Position numbers and translations under genes: made by a program | The notes under the pieces: generated by a model | What the model was told of the DNA's origin: nothing | What the model saw: the letters and a program-made list of their open reading frames with translations, nothing else | Database searches by the model: none | Shown: positions 28,715 to 32,000 of the stretch, piece after piece | Position numbering within the stretch: position 1 is the stretch's first letter | Layout: every line of letters starts with the position of its first letter | Source of the DNA: Candidatus Thorarchaeota archaeon | Lineage (GTDB): Archaea; Asgardarchaeota; Thorarchaeia; Thorarchaeales; Thorarchaeaceae | Reading direction: 5' to 3' | DNA length: 32,000 bases | Assembly: GCA_008080745.1 (NCBI GenBank) | Contig: SHMX01000008.1 | Location: forward strand, 1-32,000

Positions 28715-29023
28715 CCACCCACCTAATACTTCCTCATTCAATTCATCCACGACCAAGTGGTGACGGGATATAGAATATTTCACATATACGCCTAAAAATC
28801 CATTGCAATATCAAATTCAAGGGGAAAATCTATCTTTTTTACGAGTTCATTGAATGAGGATAGGAACCATTGATATAGCTACAAATAATTTCACTCCTCT
28901 TGGGAATAAATAGTAATTTCATTTGTCTCACTTTTTAGCAAATAATAAATCCAAGTCTTCATTAGTTTCAAATACACATTTACTCAATTGTAATCTAAGA
29001 ATTCTCAACGATTGTGTTTGGTT

Positions 29024-31615
29024 ATGGTGGATGTTGGAATTATACGAATGGGTTTCAGAAATGCATTCAGAAGAAAGCGAATTACTATATTCACATTGGT
29101 TTCTATAATGATATCAGTTGGTTTGGTATATACCGCACTCTCCGCTAGCAGCAATCTCCAAGCAAATGCAAATCATTTCATACAGGAGTCATTCTCTCCC
29201 ATTGATCTAACAGTGGAAGGTAGCTATAATTCACCCGTTTCCCAAACCATGATGAGGGATATCCAAGGTTATCTAGAAGTTCAAAGAGCTATTCCGAGAA
29301 TAGAAGAGTGGGCATCAAACGAAAGCTTTGGAGGTGACGTCATCGTGTACATAGTTGCTATAGATATGGAACTTGAGCAACATATTGGTAGTCTGAACGC
29401 AACTAATGGCATTGTTGATCTATCTTCTGGTTGCTTCCTGACTCATGAGGCTGAAGAATTACTAAATCAATCCGTGGGTGATATTTTACAGCTACATACC
29501 ACTTCTGGTTTCTTCTTCCCAAAAGTTACTGGTGTTGGTTTTGCTTTTGATAAAGGTGTAATTGGTCCCGTTGTTTTCATATCTTTACAAACCGCATGGG
29601 AGTTATACCCCTATAAATATCCCAATAATGGTACAAACAAATTACTCATTGAACTTCACGACGTTTTCTTAACTGAAGCAGTATCAGGGCGTATCACCTT
29701 TACTTATGGTAGTGATTATCACATTACTAATCTCAAAGCATATCCCTTAAAGATTGCTAATAGCTTTCTAACCCAGACCCGTGCAATTCTATTTGGTCTT
29801 GTCCTCGCTTCGATTTTTATTGCTGGATTTCGAGTATTCTCCTCTTTTGCATCTATTTTTCAGAAACGAATGCATGAAACAGGAATTATGATGGCTTTTG
29901 GAGCTGATAATAGGACTATTCTAATCGCCTTATTCTCTGAAATTGGTCTGGTTGGGTTTATTGGGTCTATCCTCGGATGCACCTTTGGCGTTGGATTTGG
30001 AGCTTTTACATTGAATATGATCTCTCAAATGCAGACCATAATTTTTTCTGGTCCCTCAACAAGTCTCTTTTCTTTGGGATTTGTTGTCGACACCTATAGT
30101 GTCATGATCTCTATCATTCTTGGAATTGGTCTGACTCTTTTTGCTGGTTATTTTCCTGCGTTATCGACAACTAGACAATCAGTTTCAAAAAGTCTCTCTG
30201 GTGGAAATCCTTTTAGTAAATTAATCACTGATAATAAGCCCAAAAAAGAACTGAGGTTGGCCCATCTAATAATCACCATCGTGAGTTCGTTTATCATAGG
30301 ATTTGTTATCCTACAACTCTTATCAGATATTTTTCACTTGGGAATCGTTTCAGAAGATTCTATAAGATTGGCAGCAATACCTGGGTTTCTGGTTCTATTT
30401 GCTCTCCTCTCCCCGCGTATCTCAAATTCTAGTGGGATTCTCAAGATGTTAACCAAACGAAGCAAAGTTGTTATTCGATATTTATCCTCCAGAAATTCAC
30501 GACGCAATACGTTATCTTCTCTTGTGATTTTTAATCTTTTTTGCGCTGTTACTGTATTATTCATTGCATCTACGAATGTTGGTTTCATGGTCACGGAATC
30601 GTGGAAACAAAATATTGGATATCAAGCAACATCAGCTAATCTAGTGGCATATATGGATCCTCCAGTTGAAATGGATTTTCTAGATGCCGTTCAATCTTAC
30701 TCTGAAGTAAGAACAGCCGTACCTATGAATCAGGATTTATATCATTTTACAAGTCAAGCATCTAGTCTTACAGGGCTTTTGTTAGCAACAGAACCTACGG
30801 GTTTTGAACAGTTAGCATCATTAGCTATCCTTGAGTCTGTAAACGAATCTGCAGGTCTTGATATTCTACACATTTCAATGTCATGTGTTATTTCGGATGA
30901 TACCGCTCTTGAATTAGATGTTACTCTGGGCGATACAATTCGAACTCACAATAATTATACCCTCTCAGTAGTTGGTATTTGTTCGTCCTCCATCGCAATA
31001 TTTGTTGTATCAGTAATCAATCCATTGTTTGCTATTGTGGGGACTGAAACTTGGTCCACTATACAAGAGGAAGATTTCAAAATCGGAAGTCTCCTCATAG
31101 AATCTACCAATCCCTCAAATACATTAGACACTCTTTCTGATATTTCTGGAGTACATCCTGTTTTAGTGTCGAATATTCTCGCTGATTACGAAACTGCGTT
31201 GTTCACTGTAGAACAGATGATTAATTCCTCTCTGATTGCACTTCTTGCTGTGACTTTTGCCAGCGCTCTACTTAGCTCTTGGTCTCTAGCTGCTTCTCGA
31301 AGAAGAGAGATTGGGATGCTATCCGCCTTTGGGATGACACGTGAGGAGATTGCAAAAACTCTGACGGCTGAAAGCACTGTGGCATTTGTAGGTGGGGTAT
31401 TGGCAGGATGTGTAGCTGGTTATTTAGTCCAATTATCAATCTCCCGTATCATAATTAGAATCACTGGTGACCTTTTCATTCTCATATCACCTCTTGTCAT
31501 TTTTCTCATAATTTTCTCACTCATTGTGTCAATTCTTGGTTCATACCTCACAGTGGCAAGAGTGACAAGAGAGAATGTGGTATCTTTACTCAGGGAAGAA
31601 AGTAGAACTGACTGA
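29024..31615 (+). CDS. FtsX/MacB-like ABC transporter permease (two FtsX repeats)
   Basis: RNAFRRKRITIFT N-terminus; KRMHETGIMMAFGA and RRREIGMLSAFGM motifs. Confidence 0.88.
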   Translation: MVDVGIIRMGFRNAFRRKRITIFTLVSIMISVGLVYTALSASSNLQANANHFIQESFSPIDLTVEGSYNSPVSQTMMRDIQGYLEVQRAIPRIEEWASNESFGGDVIVYIVAIDMELEQHIGSLNATNGIVDLSSGCFLTHEAEELLNQSVGDILQLHTTSGFFFPKVTGVGFAFDKGVIGPVVFISLQTAWELYPYKYPNNGTNKLLIELHDVFLTEAVSGRITFTYGSDYHITNLKAYPLKIANSFLTQTRAILFGLVLASIFIAGFRVFSSFASIFQKRMHETGIMMAFGADNRTILIALFSEIGLVGFIGSILGCTFGVGFGAFTLNMISQMQTIIFSGPSTSLFSLGFVVDTYSVMISIILGIGLTLFAGYFPALSTTRQSVSKSLSGGNPFSKLITDNKPKKELRLAHLIITIVSSFIIGFVILQLLSDIFHLGIVSEDSIRLAAIPGFLVLFALLSPRISNSSGILKMLTKRSKVVIRYLSSRNSRRNTLSSLVIFNLFCAVTVLFIASTNVGFMVTESWKQNIGYQATSANLVAYMDPPVEMDFLDAVQSYSEVRTAVPMNQDLYHFTSQASSLTGLLLATEPTGFEQLASLAILESVNESAGLDILHISMSCVISDDTALELDVTLGDTIRTHNNYTLSVVGICSSSIAIFVVSVINPLFAIVGTETWSTIQEEDFKIGSLLIESTNPSNTLDTLSDISGVHPVLVSNILADYETALFTVEQMINSSLIALLAVTFASALLSSWSLAASRRREIGMLSAFGMTREEIAKTLTAESTVAFVGGVLAGCVAGYLVQLSISRIIIRITGDLFILISPLVIFLIIFSLIVSILGSYLTVARVTRENVVSLLREESRTD

Positions 31616-31713
31616 TTGTTTCCTCAGCTTCGTAATTACTGTAATCGATTGATTATGGATAAAATTCGGGAAGAATCCTTCTTCTTTTGAAAGAAGAATG
31701 GATTTGAAAATTT

Positions 31714-31732
31714 AAGAAAACTGAGTGCTCAG
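31714..31732 (-). terminator. Short hairpin plus U-tract closing the small-peptide array
   Basis: CTGAG-CA-CTCAG overlapping the last stop, followed by TTTTCTT on the minus strand. Confidence 0.45.
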
Positions 31733-31833
31733 GTTGCTTCCAACGCGAGCACTTCACTGAAAGTGAGTTCACCACTCTTGCTAGAGTCCTGGTGTGTGGG
31801 AGTCGATTGCTTATCTTGAACGCTGGAGTTCAT
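31729..31833 (-). CDS. Small peptide C, 34 aa (MNSSVQDKQSTPTHQDSSKSGELTFSEVLALEAT)
   Basis: ATG preceded by GGAGATGATC (9/10 match to GGAGGTGATC) overlapping the previous stop. Confidence 0.55.
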   Translation of the reverse strand: MNSSVQDKQSTPTHQDSSKSGELTFSEVLALEAT

Positions 31834-31838
31834 TGAGA

Positions 31839-31922
31839 TCATCTCCTGAAGTAAGCGTGGGTGATAGCCTTGGTCGAGGGGGACTTGGTGTCCTTGATGA
31901 TCTTGGTCTTGGATACTGCCAT
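31839..31922 (-). CDS. Small peptide B, 27 aa (MAVSKTKIIKDTKSPSTKAITHAYFRR)
   Basis: GGAGGTAATC SD 7 nt before ATG; all Lys=AAG, Ile=ATC, Thr=ACC; paralogous to peptide A. Confidence 0.75.
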   Translation of the reverse strand: MAVSKTKIIKDTKSPSTKAITHAYFRR

Positions 31923-31927
31923 TGAGA

Positions 31928-32000
31928 TTACCTCCAGTATGTGTAAGCATAGGACAGAGCCTTGGTGCTCTGAGTCTTACGGGTGTTGTTCTTCTTCTCG
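31928..32000 (-). CDS. Small peptide A, 5'-partial (...EKKNNTRKTQSTKALSYAYTYWR)
   Basis: Open frame from the window edge; shares STKA-x-x-[YH]-AY with peptide B and the same codon bias. Confidence 0.7.
   Translation of the reverse strand, partial: EKKNNTRKTQSTKALSYAYTYWR

What the first reader, a model, noticed from the sequence alone, without database searches (positions are those of the whole stretch)
31729..32000. Tandem array of tiny, translationally coupled, paralogous peptides (possible RiPP precursor array)
Seen on the minus strand: ORF A (...EKKNNTRKTQSTKALSYAYTYWR*), ORF B (MAVSKTKIIKDTKSPSTKAITHAYFRR*) and ORF C (34 aa). Each junction is stop-TCTCA-ATG, with a near-perfect archaeal SD (GGAGGTAATC, GGAGATGATC) built into the last codons of the previous ORF. 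A and B share ACCAAGGCT...GCTTAC...ATCTCAATG at DNA level and STKA-x-x-[YH]-AY at protein level. Codons are almost all C/G-ending (AAG, ACC, ATC, TAC, AAC), unlike neighbouring genes, suggesting real and high expression. The ORF track shows only a 73-aa shadow frame. A Lys-rich N-terminal part with an aromatic C-terminal core (YAYTYW, HAYF) is the layout of precursors cross-linked by radical SAM or P450 enzymes (inference). An FtsX-like permease lies convergently next to it. The array is cut by the window edge, so more copies and any maturase may lie beyond 32000.
Basis: partly seen in the sequence, partly recalled or inferred. Interest (0 to 1): 0.85.

Follow-up and report, generated by a model that had tools for sequence, protein, structure and literature searches.

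The report
Multicopy three-micropeptide operon of Thorarchaeota
The flagged stretch is a real operon for three tiny proteins, absent from every family library searched, that Thorarchaeota (Asgard archaea) keep in several near-identical copies under the same genetic switch as membrane pump genes and a cytoskeleton-like gene; nothing links it to peptide-modifying enzymes and its function is still unknown.

Summary
On the minus strand lie three small ORFs joined by Shine-Dalgarno (SD)-stop-spacer-ATG junctions: A (34 aa, its start lies 32 bases past the window edge), B (27 aa) and C (34 aa).

They form a self-contained unit of about 405 bp: palindromic operator, TATA box, three ORFs, hairpin and T-tract. 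No further copies lie next to it; the next gene is a rubredoxin.

- **Copies:** five dispersed copies per genome (88-98% identical) plus one divergent copy. They evolve in concert.
- **Spread:** found in 80 of 85 genomes of one Thorarchaeota family and in 0 of 314 other Asgard genomes searched.
- **Coding evidence:** dN/dS is 0.10-0.34; stop codons vary but are always present; indels are in-frame inside ORFs and free in the spacer.
- **Added here:** the same operator precedes major-facilitator (MFS) transporter genes, often directly behind A/B-type peptides. It also precedes a bactofilin-like gene that always follows a conserved 107-aa winged-helix gene, the likely regulator. A second Asgard family has a simpler one-peptide form.
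- **RiPP reading (precursors of modified peptides):** not supported. No maturase lies within 37 kb, no YcaO was found, and the one RRE-radical SAM does not co-occur with the peptides.
- **Codon bias:** it is real but is not this genome's high-expression usage.

This scan had already found the same family on the other copies of this genome.

The parts
31928..32000 (-). ORF A (peptide A), last 23 codons plus stop TAA. The gene continues past the window edge to contig position C8:32032 (34 aa, pI 10.2).
   Evidence: Family HMM A1 scores 66.7 bits, E 1e-17. dN/dS is 0.34 in the close set.
31926..31935 (-). Shine-Dalgarno site for ORF B (GGAGGTAATC), built from the last codons and stop of ORF A.
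   Evidence: The 16S 3' end is GGATCACCTCCT. The same design (terminal Arg codon, AGG or AGA in nearly all, plus stop acting as SD) is seen at 58 junctions in other units.
31839..31922 (-). ORF B (peptide B), 27 aa plus stop TGA. Basic (pI 10.7), ends in AYFRR.
   Evidence: The protein is identical in all five copies, with only synonymous DNA changes and varying stop codons. dN/dS is 0.10.
31837..31846 (-). Shine-Dalgarno site for ORF C (GGAGATGATC), overlapping the last codons and stop of ORF B.
31729..31833 (-). ORF C (peptide C), 34 aa plus stop TGA. Acidic (pI 4.5), variable N-terminal part, conserved C-terminus L-[ST]-x-x-E-V-L-A-L-E-A-T.
   Evidence: The frame is open in 15 divergent lineages; the chance product is 3e-9. 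Leu and Ser/Thr codons upstream of the hairpin vary while the residues stay. dN/dS is 0.31.
31724..31753 (-). Conserved 3' hairpin (AGTGCTC GC GTTG GAAG CAAC CT GAGCACT) covering the last 8 codons and the stop of ORF C.
   Evidence: present in 29 of 42 units, with compensatory changes (for example L031 GTGCTC/GAGCAC to ATACTC/GAGTAC). It is the only stable element of the transcript.
31707..31720 (-). T-rich tract (TTTTCTTAAATTTT) after the hairpin. Likely transcription terminator and end of the repeated unit.
   Evidence: all five copies lose similarity here, and all have T-runs after the hairpin.

Best explanation
**What it is (shown).** One copy of a stand-alone transcription unit of about 405 bp, at contig C8:31713-32119 on the minus strand. 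It makes three micro-proteins from one nearly leaderless mRNA.
- A and B are basic paralogues. Each has a hydrophilic N-terminal part and a short C-terminal aromatic/Arg segment, A-[LI]-x-x-A-Y-...-R-R.
- C is acidic, with a conserved C-terminal segment, EVLALEAT.
- B and C are started by strong SD sites written into the Arg-stop end of the preceding ORF.
- A hairpin plus T-tract ends the unit.
- The genome holds five near-identical copies and one divergent copy. Gene conversion keeps the copies alike.

**How it is controlled (inferred from conserved sequence and gene order).** The promoter carries a palindrome, GTCACAA-N-TTGTGAC, and further GTGAC-like half-sites over the BRE/TATA region. The same operator precedes MFS transporter genes. 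It also precedes a bactofilin-like gene that always sits right behind a conserved 107-aa winged-helix (HTH_45) gene. I take that protein to be the regulator of the whole set.

**What the peptides do (inference, my best guess).** They are made in bulk together with the MFS transporters when the operator is released. They act with those transporters at the membrane, either as leaderless cationic peptides that the pumps handle or export, or as small partners of the pumps. C would be an optional acidic companion.
For: **Real coding unit**
- Five copies at 88-98% identity with sharp borders.
- Synonymous-only changes in B, varying stop codons, in-frame indels.
- dN/dS of 0.34, 0.10 and 0.31 for A, B and C.
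- ORF C stays open in 15 divergent lineages; chance product 3e-9.
- The whole transcript is not unusually structured, z = -1.2, and has no Rfam match.

**A family**
- 42 units were taken from 24 genomes.
- The A-type HMM matches 80 of 85 genomes of family f1 and 0 of 314 other Asgard genomes.
- It gives only 41 hits among 1.84 billion representative proteins, almost all 32-38 aa.

**Concerted evolution**
- Paralogues within one genome are 88-98% identical.
- All pairs between the two species, the four positional orthologue pairs included, are 81-85% identical.

**Regulon**
- The promoter consensus is conserved across genera.
- In the own genome the same promoter stands before a bactofilin-like gene and two MFS genes.
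- 14 of 30 MFS loci in the family carry the promoter.
- A/B-type peptides lie between promoter and MFS gene in loci of nine genomes: G395, G019, G004, G006, G341, G002, G017, G015 and, as a divergent form, G011.
- G016 (95% complete) gave no match for peptides, MFS or winged-helix gene.
- The winged-helix gene is single-copy, in 25 of 26 f1 genomes and 18 of 19 f12 genomes.
- It is followed by operator plus TATA in 14 of 14 f1 loci. A full bactofilin-like ORF was read in 12 of these, and the same order holds in f12.
- In family f12 the operator precedes MFS genes, a single 29-33 aa basic peptide ending in CRR with its own hairpin, and the bactofilin-like gene.

**Shape**
- AlphaFold2 models A as one helix, residues 8-33. 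Confidence is modest (pLDDT 65) and best in the C-terminal third.
Against: - No expression or peptide data could be obtained, so translation is inferred from evolution only.
- MFS pumps are not known, to my knowledge, to move peptides of 3-4 kDa.
- The peptides are very hydrophilic (GRAVY -0.6 to -1.5) and lack signal or leader sequences. This differs from known exported leaderless peptides.
- Most copies, this window's copy included, are not next to an MFS gene.
- The bactofilin-like gene is equally co-regulated and could be the true partner.
- Binding of the winged-helix protein to the operator rests on gene order alone.
Confidence: 0.4

Rival explanations
1. Abundant intracellular stress proteins. 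The basic peptides A and B bind nucleic acid or ribosomes, for example to compact or protect DNA or to silence ribosomes. C acts as an acidic counter-ion or chaperone. The MFS and bactofilin-like genes are only fellow members of one stress regulon.
For: - Multi-copy dosage and concerted evolution, as in other bulk structural proteins.
- pI of 10.2-10.7 with alternating Tyr/Phe and terminal Arg-Arg.
- Very hydrophilic and without export signals.
- Most copies stand alone, away from any transporter gene.
Against: - No match to any nucleic-acid-binding family.
- This reading does not explain the physical linkage of A/B-type peptides to MFS genes in loci of nine genomes.
- The peptides are shorter than known SASP- or RMF-type proteins (my own knowledge).
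Confidence: 0.25
2. A and B, and perhaps C, are precursors of a modified peptide or peptide-derived small molecule. They are consumed one for one, hence the many copies. A maturase encoded elsewhere modifies them and the MFS pump exports the product.
For: - Size, and conserved Tyr-rich C-terminal segments.
- To my knowledge MFS pumps export small peptide-derived products such as microcin C and pantocin A.
- The genome does encode one RRE-radical SAM-SPASM protein.
Against: - No maturase-type gene lies near any copy; the nearest radical SAM is at least 37 kb away.
- No YcaO was found.
- The RRE-radical SAM orthologue is present where the peptides were not found or only weakly matched, and was not found in several genomes that have them.
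- No maturase gene carries the regulon's promoter: the strict pattern found only peptide units in five genomes.
- The terminal Arg codons are partly explained by their SD role.
Confidence: 0.1
3. A toxin-antidote-like module. Cationic A and B are harmful peptides, to the cell itself or to competitors. Acidic C neutralises them inside the producer, and the MFS pump gives export or immunity.
For: - Opposite charges of A/B and C, made from one coupled mRNA.
- The variable parts diverge fast while the short docking-like ends are conserved.
- Linkage to a pump.
Against: - Many units lack C (A-B only, A only, or the single-peptide form in family f12).
- Net charges do not balance: about +11 for A plus B against -3.4 for C.
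- Five identical copies kept by gene conversion is unlike toxin-antitoxin families, to my knowledge.
Confidence: 0.1
4. Not protein-coding. The unit is a repeated non-coding RNA gene or a small mobile element, and the ORFs are accidental.
For: - Sharp borders, dispersed copies, raised G+C (0.50 against about 0.40).
- A hairpin conserved at the DNA level.
- Promoter and 3' end are the best-conserved DNA parts between genera.
Against: - Coding signatures throughout.
- No Rfam family; whole-transcript fold z = -1.2.
- No terminal inverted repeats are visible at the unit's ends.
- Four copies sit at the same chromosomal places in a sister species, so the unit is not actively mobile.
Confidence: 0.03

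Closest known systems
Leaderless multi-peptide bacteriocin operons of Firmicutes (aureocin A70, garvicin KS, enterocin L50); comparison from my own knowledge
   Same: Two to four tandem paralogous genes for cationic peptides of about 27-45 aa, made without leader or signal sequence, tightly coupled, and genetically tied to a transporter.
   Different: - Those peptides are hydrophobic or amphipathic and Trp-rich. These are strongly hydrophilic.
- Their transporters are of the ABC type, not MFS.
- They are single-copy and often plasmid-borne. Here there are five or six chromosomal copies kept alike by gene conversion.
- They have no acidic third peptide.
- There is no sequence similarity.
psm-alpha operon (phenol-soluble modulins) with the Pmt exporter of Staphylococcus; from my own knowledge
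   Same: A small stand-alone operon of several paralogous unprocessed micro-peptides, made in large amounts and dependent on a dedicated exporter.
   Different: PSMs are amphipathic, surfactant-like helices of 20-25 aa. Their exporter is an ABC transporter and their control is by AgrA. This unit has no homology to them and a different chemistry.
Repressor/operator-controlled MFS efflux circuits (TetR-TetA, QacR-QacA, BmrR-Bmr); from my own knowledge
   Same: A palindromic operator overlapping the core promoter of an MFS pump gene, with a small DNA-binding protein as the presumed switch. In family f12, genus g48, an ArsR-HTH/GyrI-like regulator gene lies divergent from the pump gene.
   Different: - The candidate regulator here is a 107-aa HTH_45 winged-helix protein without a ligand-binding domain.
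- The regulon also holds multi-copy micro-peptide operons and a bactofilin-like gene, which those circuits lack.
PqqA / MftA-type precursor peptides of peptide-derived cofactors; from my own knowledge
   Different: Those genes sit in or beside clusters with a radical SAM/SPASM enzyme and a PqqD-like RRE. Here no such cluster exists, and the only RRE-radical SAM does not co-occur with the peptides.
Alpha/beta-type small acid-soluble spore proteins (SASPs) of Bacillus and Clostridium; from my own knowledge
   Same: A multigene family of small, abundant, co-regulated proteins at dispersed monocistronic loci.
   Different: SASPs are 60-75 aa, single-gene units with a defined DNA-binding helix-turn-helix-like fold. 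There is no similarity of sequence or of operon design.

Membership tests
   27-37 aa ORFs under purifying selection.
   - The nearest Radical_SAM match is at least 37 kb from any copy, and there is none on contigs C8 and C12.
- No YcaO in the genome.
- Neighbours of the five copies differ, and those read are housekeeping genes.
- P450 and Lan-type families were not searched.
   The single PqqD/RRE domain is in the RRE-radical SAM-SPASM protein at C4:3825-5252. Orthologues are present in G005, G016 and G020, where peptides were not found or only weakly matched. They were not found in G008, G013, G014, G023 and G024, which have the peptides. MAG incompleteness weakens this somewhat.
   Needs mass spectrometry.
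Leaderless (class IId) multi-peptide bacteriocins | Tandem paralogous cationic peptides without leader | tested here: met
Leaderless (class IId) multi-peptide bacteriocins | Hydrophobic or amphipathic, membrane-active sequence | tested here: not met
   GRAVY is -1.46 (A) and -0.57 (B); family means are about -0.67. Only about 12 C-terminal residues have an amphipathic pattern.
Leaderless (class IId) multi-peptide bacteriocins | Dedicated ABC exporter or immunity genes in the locus | tested here: not met
   The conserved partner is an MFS transporter, not an ABC transporter. The FtsX/MacB-like permease beside this copy is not a neighbour of the other copies.
Leaderless (class IId) multi-peptide bacteriocins | Antimicrobial activity | not testable with these tools
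   Needs synthetic peptides and assays.
Any described protein or RNA family | Significant match to Pfam, NCBIfam, Rfam or ESM Atlas clusters | tested here: not met
   No hit at E up to 10 in Pfam and NCBIfam. No Rfam hit at E up to 1. No usable ESM Atlas hit.
Structured non-coding RNA | Fold more stable than shuffled sequence, or covariation over the whole transcript | tested here: not met
   z = -1.21, and 11 of 100 shuffles fold as well. Only the 3' hairpin is conserved and shows compensatory change.

The most novel reading that the evidence does not exclude
The micro-peptides are the working output of an undescribed Asgard-specific regulon. Its parts are a winged-helix switch, a palindromic operator, MFS transporters and a bactofilin-like polymer. 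The peptides are then either leaderless cationic peptides released through MFS transporters (a secreted peptide or archaeocin-like system of a new type), or stoichiometrically consumed precursors of a small peptide-derived product exported by those pumps.
Probability: 0.2. Interest if true: 0.8.

Novelty: new variant of a known kind. Interest (0 to 1): 0.6.

Why it matters
Small proteins under 40 residues are largely invisible to gene callers. To my knowledge almost none have been characterised in Asgard archaea, the closest known relatives of eukaryotes.

This family is unusually well supported for an uncharacterised one.
- It is near-universal in one Thorarchaeota family and multi-copy.
- Its copies are kept alike by gene conversion, as rRNA and histone genes are.
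- It is wired to a conserved regulon with transporters and a cytoskeleton-like protein.

That gives a concrete, testable entry point into Asgard gene regulation (an operator, a candidate regulator and defined targets) and into micro-protein function.

For annotation, it shows that each such genome holds 15 or more peptide genes of this family that no family library searched here covers. It also shows that a RiPP label based on peptide shape alone would be premature.

Tried and rejected
**Searches and jobs that gave nothing**
- *RNA evidence.* Two look-ups of public runs: two DNA holders (marine sediment metagenomes, one study), no RNA holder listed, and none listed with kind rna. I did not lay reads.
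- *Complex prediction of A+B+C (partner C).* No verdict; score 0.05 against a mark of 0.32. This is no evidence either way.
- *ESM Atlas search with peptide A.* No usable hit.
- *tRNA scan near copies.* ARAGORN found none. Rfam later found one tRNA beside a unit in G007.

**Regulator candidates rejected**
- *MerR-HTH/GyrI-like (BmrR-like) protein at C5:47783-48631.* Orthologues in 0 of 26 family genomes.
- *ArsR-HTH/GyrI-like gene divergent from the MFS gene in G142 (family f12).* It has no orthologue in this genome; the only weak hit has a different architecture.

**Neighbour and regulon searches**
- *FtsX/MacB-like permease beside the window copy as partner.* Not a neighbour of the other four copies.
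- *Neighbours of the syntenic peptide-MFS locus as maturase candidates.* The neighbours are topoisomerase VI A and B, a CofE-like ligase, a zinc-ribbon protein and 3-hydroxyacyl-CoA dehydrogenase. None is a maturase type.
- *Strict promoter pattern over five family genomes.* It found only peptide units, so no extra regulon members came from it.
- *One over-strict pattern search in family f12.* It returned nothing through my own error and was repeated with a simpler pattern.

**Readings considered and set aside**
- *A conserved 'fourth peptide' between the peptides and the MFS gene.* It is a second array of GTGAC-type half-sites with a TATA-like box, that is an internal promoter, not a coding frame.
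- *Leader-peptide attenuator.* Translation of C melting the hairpin to control a downstream gene. Downstream genes differ between copies, and here the downstream gene is convergent.
- *Read-through of the stops into one long protein.* The frames differ, and the 1-nt spacer indel changes the frame relation between copies.
Full report
**1. The observation**

On the minus strand of 31729-32000 lie three small ORFs:
- ORF B at 31839-31922, 27 aa, MAVSKTKIIKDTKSPSTKAITHAYFRR.
- ORF C at 31729-31833, 34 aa.
- ORF A, whose 3' part runs from 31928 to the window edge.

The window is G000:C8:1-32000. With the whole genome laid out, ORF A continues to C8:32032 and is 34 aa.

Both junctions read stop-TCTCA-ATG. 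GGAGGTAATC and GGAGATGATC each differ at one base from GGAGGTGATC. That is the complement of this genome's own 16S 3' end, GGATCACCTCCT.

Nothing more of the array lies beyond the edge. Upstream of A are 87 bp of promoter and then a rubredoxin gene at C8:32279-32500.

**2. It is a repeated, self-contained unit**

The stretch recurs at C1:659805-660210, C12:4340-4745, C2:572623-573026 and C2:311748-312150.

Aligned, the five copies share about 405 bp with sharp borders. The order of parts is:
- the palindrome GTCACAA-N-TTGTGAC;
- further GTG(A/T)CC and GTGGCT boxes;
- the TATA box TTATATAC;
- about 22-25 nt later a conserved TTGTGAA, where the transcript should start;
- the ATG of A only 7-10 nt further on, so A is nearly leaderless;
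- ORFs A, B and C;
- a hairpin and T-runs.

A sixth, divergent unit lies at C2:~49550-49870(-). It has the same junction design but a different promoter.

**3. It is coding**

- Among the five copies, ORF B is identical as protein although the DNA differs at six or more synonymous sites.
- Its stop codon is TGA, TAA or TAG in different copies.
- A 6-nt indel inside A is in frame, and a 1-nt indel falls exactly in the A-B spacer.
- For the two species of the genus, dN/dS is 0.34 (A), 0.10 (B) and 0.31 (C).
- ORF C has a very variable N-terminal part. It nevertheless stays open from an ATG 4-8 nt after B's stop in 15 divergent lineages. The chance of that is about 0.28 per lineage, giving a product of 3e-9.
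- The Leu and Ser/Thr residues just before the hairpin are kept with changing codons.
- The whole transcript is not more stable than shuffled sequence (z = -1.2), and Rfam finds nothing.
- The 73-aa and 134-aa 'shadow' ORFs are not kept in the other copies.

**4. The family**

DNA search found the unit in 21 of 24 genomes of the same family and in none of 16 genomes from other families. I extracted 42 units. The consensus peptides are:
- A: MAL[AT]xNxR...KKN...QSTxA[LI]xYAYxxxxR
- B: MALAK...STxAIxxAYFRR
- C: variable, then L[ST]xxEVLALEAT

Architectures vary: A-B-C, A-B-B'-C, A-B, A alone, and A-A'.

An HMM of A matched 80 of 85 genomes of family f1 and 0 of 314 genomes of the other Asgard families, with up to 12 matches per genome. 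Against 1.84 billion representative proteins it found 41 hits, nearly all 32-38 aa.

Pfam, NCBIfam and the ESM Atlas gave nothing. Source names of the MFS homologues identify the group as Thorarchaeota, as earlier notes of this scan also say.

**5. Design details**

- *SD sites.* In 58 junctions the last residue of the upstream peptide is nearly always Arg, encoded by AGG or AGA. Together with the stop codon it forms the SD of the next ORF, GAGGTGA or GGAGGTAA. In family f12, where nothing follows, the peptide mostly still ends in Arg-Arg. The Arg end is therefore also a peptide feature.
- *Hairpin.* In most genomes the 3' hairpin is a 12-bp stem with a GAAG loop. It covers the last eight codons and the stop of C and shows compensatory changes. 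The DNA-level conservation of EVLALEAT is therefore a double constraint.
- *Peptide properties.* A and B have pI 10.2 and 10.7, and C has pI 4.5. All are hydrophilic. AlphaFold2 models A as one helix with modest confidence, best in the C-terminal third.

**6. Concerted evolution and codon bias**

Flanking DNA shows that four copies sit at the same places in the sister species G001. The copy in this window has no counterpart found there.

Even so, copies within a genome are 88-98% identical, while all pairs between the two genomes are 81-85% identical. Gene conversion therefore keeps the dispersed copies alike.

GC3 of the three ORFs is 0.67 against a genome mean of 0.35 (sd 0.08). Ribosomal-protein and EF-1alpha genes have GC3 of 0.28-0.43, and the peptides' CAI against them is below average. 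GC3 is raised in most genera, with a mean of 0.57. GC-biased gene conversion is a possible cause; that is my inference.

**7. The regulon**

In this genome the same promoter also precedes:
- a 411-aa bactofilin-like gene at C3:523809-525044;
- a 33-aa ORF plus an MFS gene at C4:64034 and C4:64402-65715;
- more weakly, a second MFS gene at C1:631741-633192.

*MFS genes.* Of 30 MFS loci from the family, 14 carry the promoter. In loci of nine genomes A/B-type peptides lie between promoter and MFS gene: G395, G019, G004, G006, G341, G002, G017, G015 and, as a divergent form, G011. A second array of GTGAC half-sites with a TATA-like box lies just before the MFS gene.

*Bactofilin-like gene and winged-helix gene.* The bactofilin-like gene always follows, within about 40 nt plus the operator, a 107-aa HTH_45 winged-helix gene at C3:523367-523690. 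Operator plus TATA follows that gene in 14 of 14 family loci. A full bactofilin-like ORF was read in 12 of them, and the same order holds in family f12, genus g48.

The winged-helix gene is single-copy. It is present in 25 of 26 f1 genomes (63-87% identity) and 18 of 19 f12 genomes (60-74%). It was not found in G016, which also gave no match for MFS genes or peptides. It is the best regulator candidate, by association only.

*Family f12.* The operator there precedes MFS genes, the bactofilin-like gene, an LLM-type oxidoreductase and a single 29-33 aa basic peptide. An example is MHKYNDYEGMDKEKQARIIKDIYTFACRR, followed by a GC-rich hairpin. The regulon is therefore older than the three-peptide operon, which looks like an expansion within family f1.

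**8. The RiPP reading**

- Thirty Radical_SAM matches exist in the genome. None lies within 37 kb of a copy.
- No YcaO was found.
- The only PqqD/RRE domain belongs to an RRE-radical SAM-SPASM protein at C4:3825-5252.
- Its orthologues occur in G005, G016 and G020, where peptides were not found or only weakly matched. They were not found in G008, G013, G014, G023 and G024, which have the peptides.
- The syntenic peptide-MFS locus is flanked by topoisomerase VI, a CofE-like ligase, a zinc-ribbon protein and fatty-acid genes.

The reading is unsupported but not excluded.

**9. What it most likely is**

*Shown:* a real micro-protein operon that is multi-copy, homogenised, family-restricted and a member of a conserved operator-defined regulon.

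*Inferred:* on release of the operator the peptides are made in bulk with the MFS transporters and work with them, as cargo or as partner. My confidence in this is 0.4.

*Rivals:*
- intracellular nucleic-acid- or ribosome-binding stress proteins (0.25);
- RiPP or cofactor precursors (0.1);
- a toxin-antidote-like module (0.1);
- a non-coding unit (0.03).

No expression data could be found, and the complex prediction gave no verdict.

**10. Novelty**

I found no description in the literature searched and no family in the libraries. This scan had already reported the same family from the other copies of this genome, with the same basic verdict. The summaries of the earlier reports shown to me mention only the shared control site with a cytoskeleton-like gene and transporter or efflux-pump genes.
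- the physical peptide-MFS linkage across genera;
- the winged-helix/operator/bactofilin cassette;
- the one-peptide form in a second Asgard family;
- the quantified concerted evolution;
- the failure of the codon-bias argument;
- the negative co-occurrence test for the only RRE-radical SAM.

Noticed in passing
L003:1811-2144 (-) = G000:C12, just downstream of the C12 copy: The archaeal RNase P RNA gene (Rfam RF00373, 163 bits) lies convergent to the C12 copy of the peptide unit. This explains why that flank is 89% identical to the sister species.
   Followed up: partly
G000:C4:3825-5252 (-) (L096:823-2253): A 476-aa PqqD(RRE)-radical SAM-SPASM protein, the only RRE in the genome. Orthologues of 66-86% identity occur in most family genomes, and I saw no obvious precursor gene beside it. 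It is a candidate orphan RiPP-type maturase, unrelated in distribution to the peptides studied here.
   Followed up: partly
G000:C2:~49550-49870 (-): A sixth, divergent three-peptide unit (…AVALYHAYVYRR, MAQEKNQTHKKQRKAISTKAIGYSYQYR, …DEVLRLECT) with the same junctions but another promoter carrying GGTTTG-N-CAAACC-type palindromes. Similar palindromes lie upstream of the C4 peptide-MFS promoter.
   Followed up: partly
G000:C5:47783-48631 (-) (L163:1483-2331): A MerR-HTH plus GyrI-like (BmrR-type) regulator, followed by a second stand-alone GyrI-like gene. It is rare in Asgard genomes (5 of 151 searched) and absent from the other family members searched, so it may be a recent acquisition.
   Followed up: partly
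G000:C2:309659-311011 (-): The EF-1alpha gene next to the C2b copy reads as two ORFs (102 aa and 339 aa) separated by a short gap. This could be a frameshift, an assembly error or something else.
   Followed up: no
L095:4505-5374 (+), L094:11692-12420 (+) and orthologues: A conserved 240-290 aa protein with C-terminal zinc ribbons and an unassigned N-terminal domain directly follows the MFS gene in five genera. It is missing at that place in this genome.
   Followed up: no
L124:4129-4980 (+) = G142:C213: In family f12, genus g48, an ArsR-HTH plus GyrI-like/Cass2 effector-binding regulator gene lies divergent from the operator-MFS pair, the classic layout of a ligand-sensing efflux circuit.
   Followed up: partly
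window 29012-31615 (+): An 867-aa FtsX/MacB-like permease with two FtsX domains and a MacB periplasmic core domain lies convergent to the unit. It is not linked to the other copies.
   Followed up: partly
L009:1975-2085 (-) = G007:C30: A tRNA gene, long enough to hold an intron (111 nt), lies just downstream of a peptide unit. ARAGORN missed it and Rfam found it.
   Followed up: no
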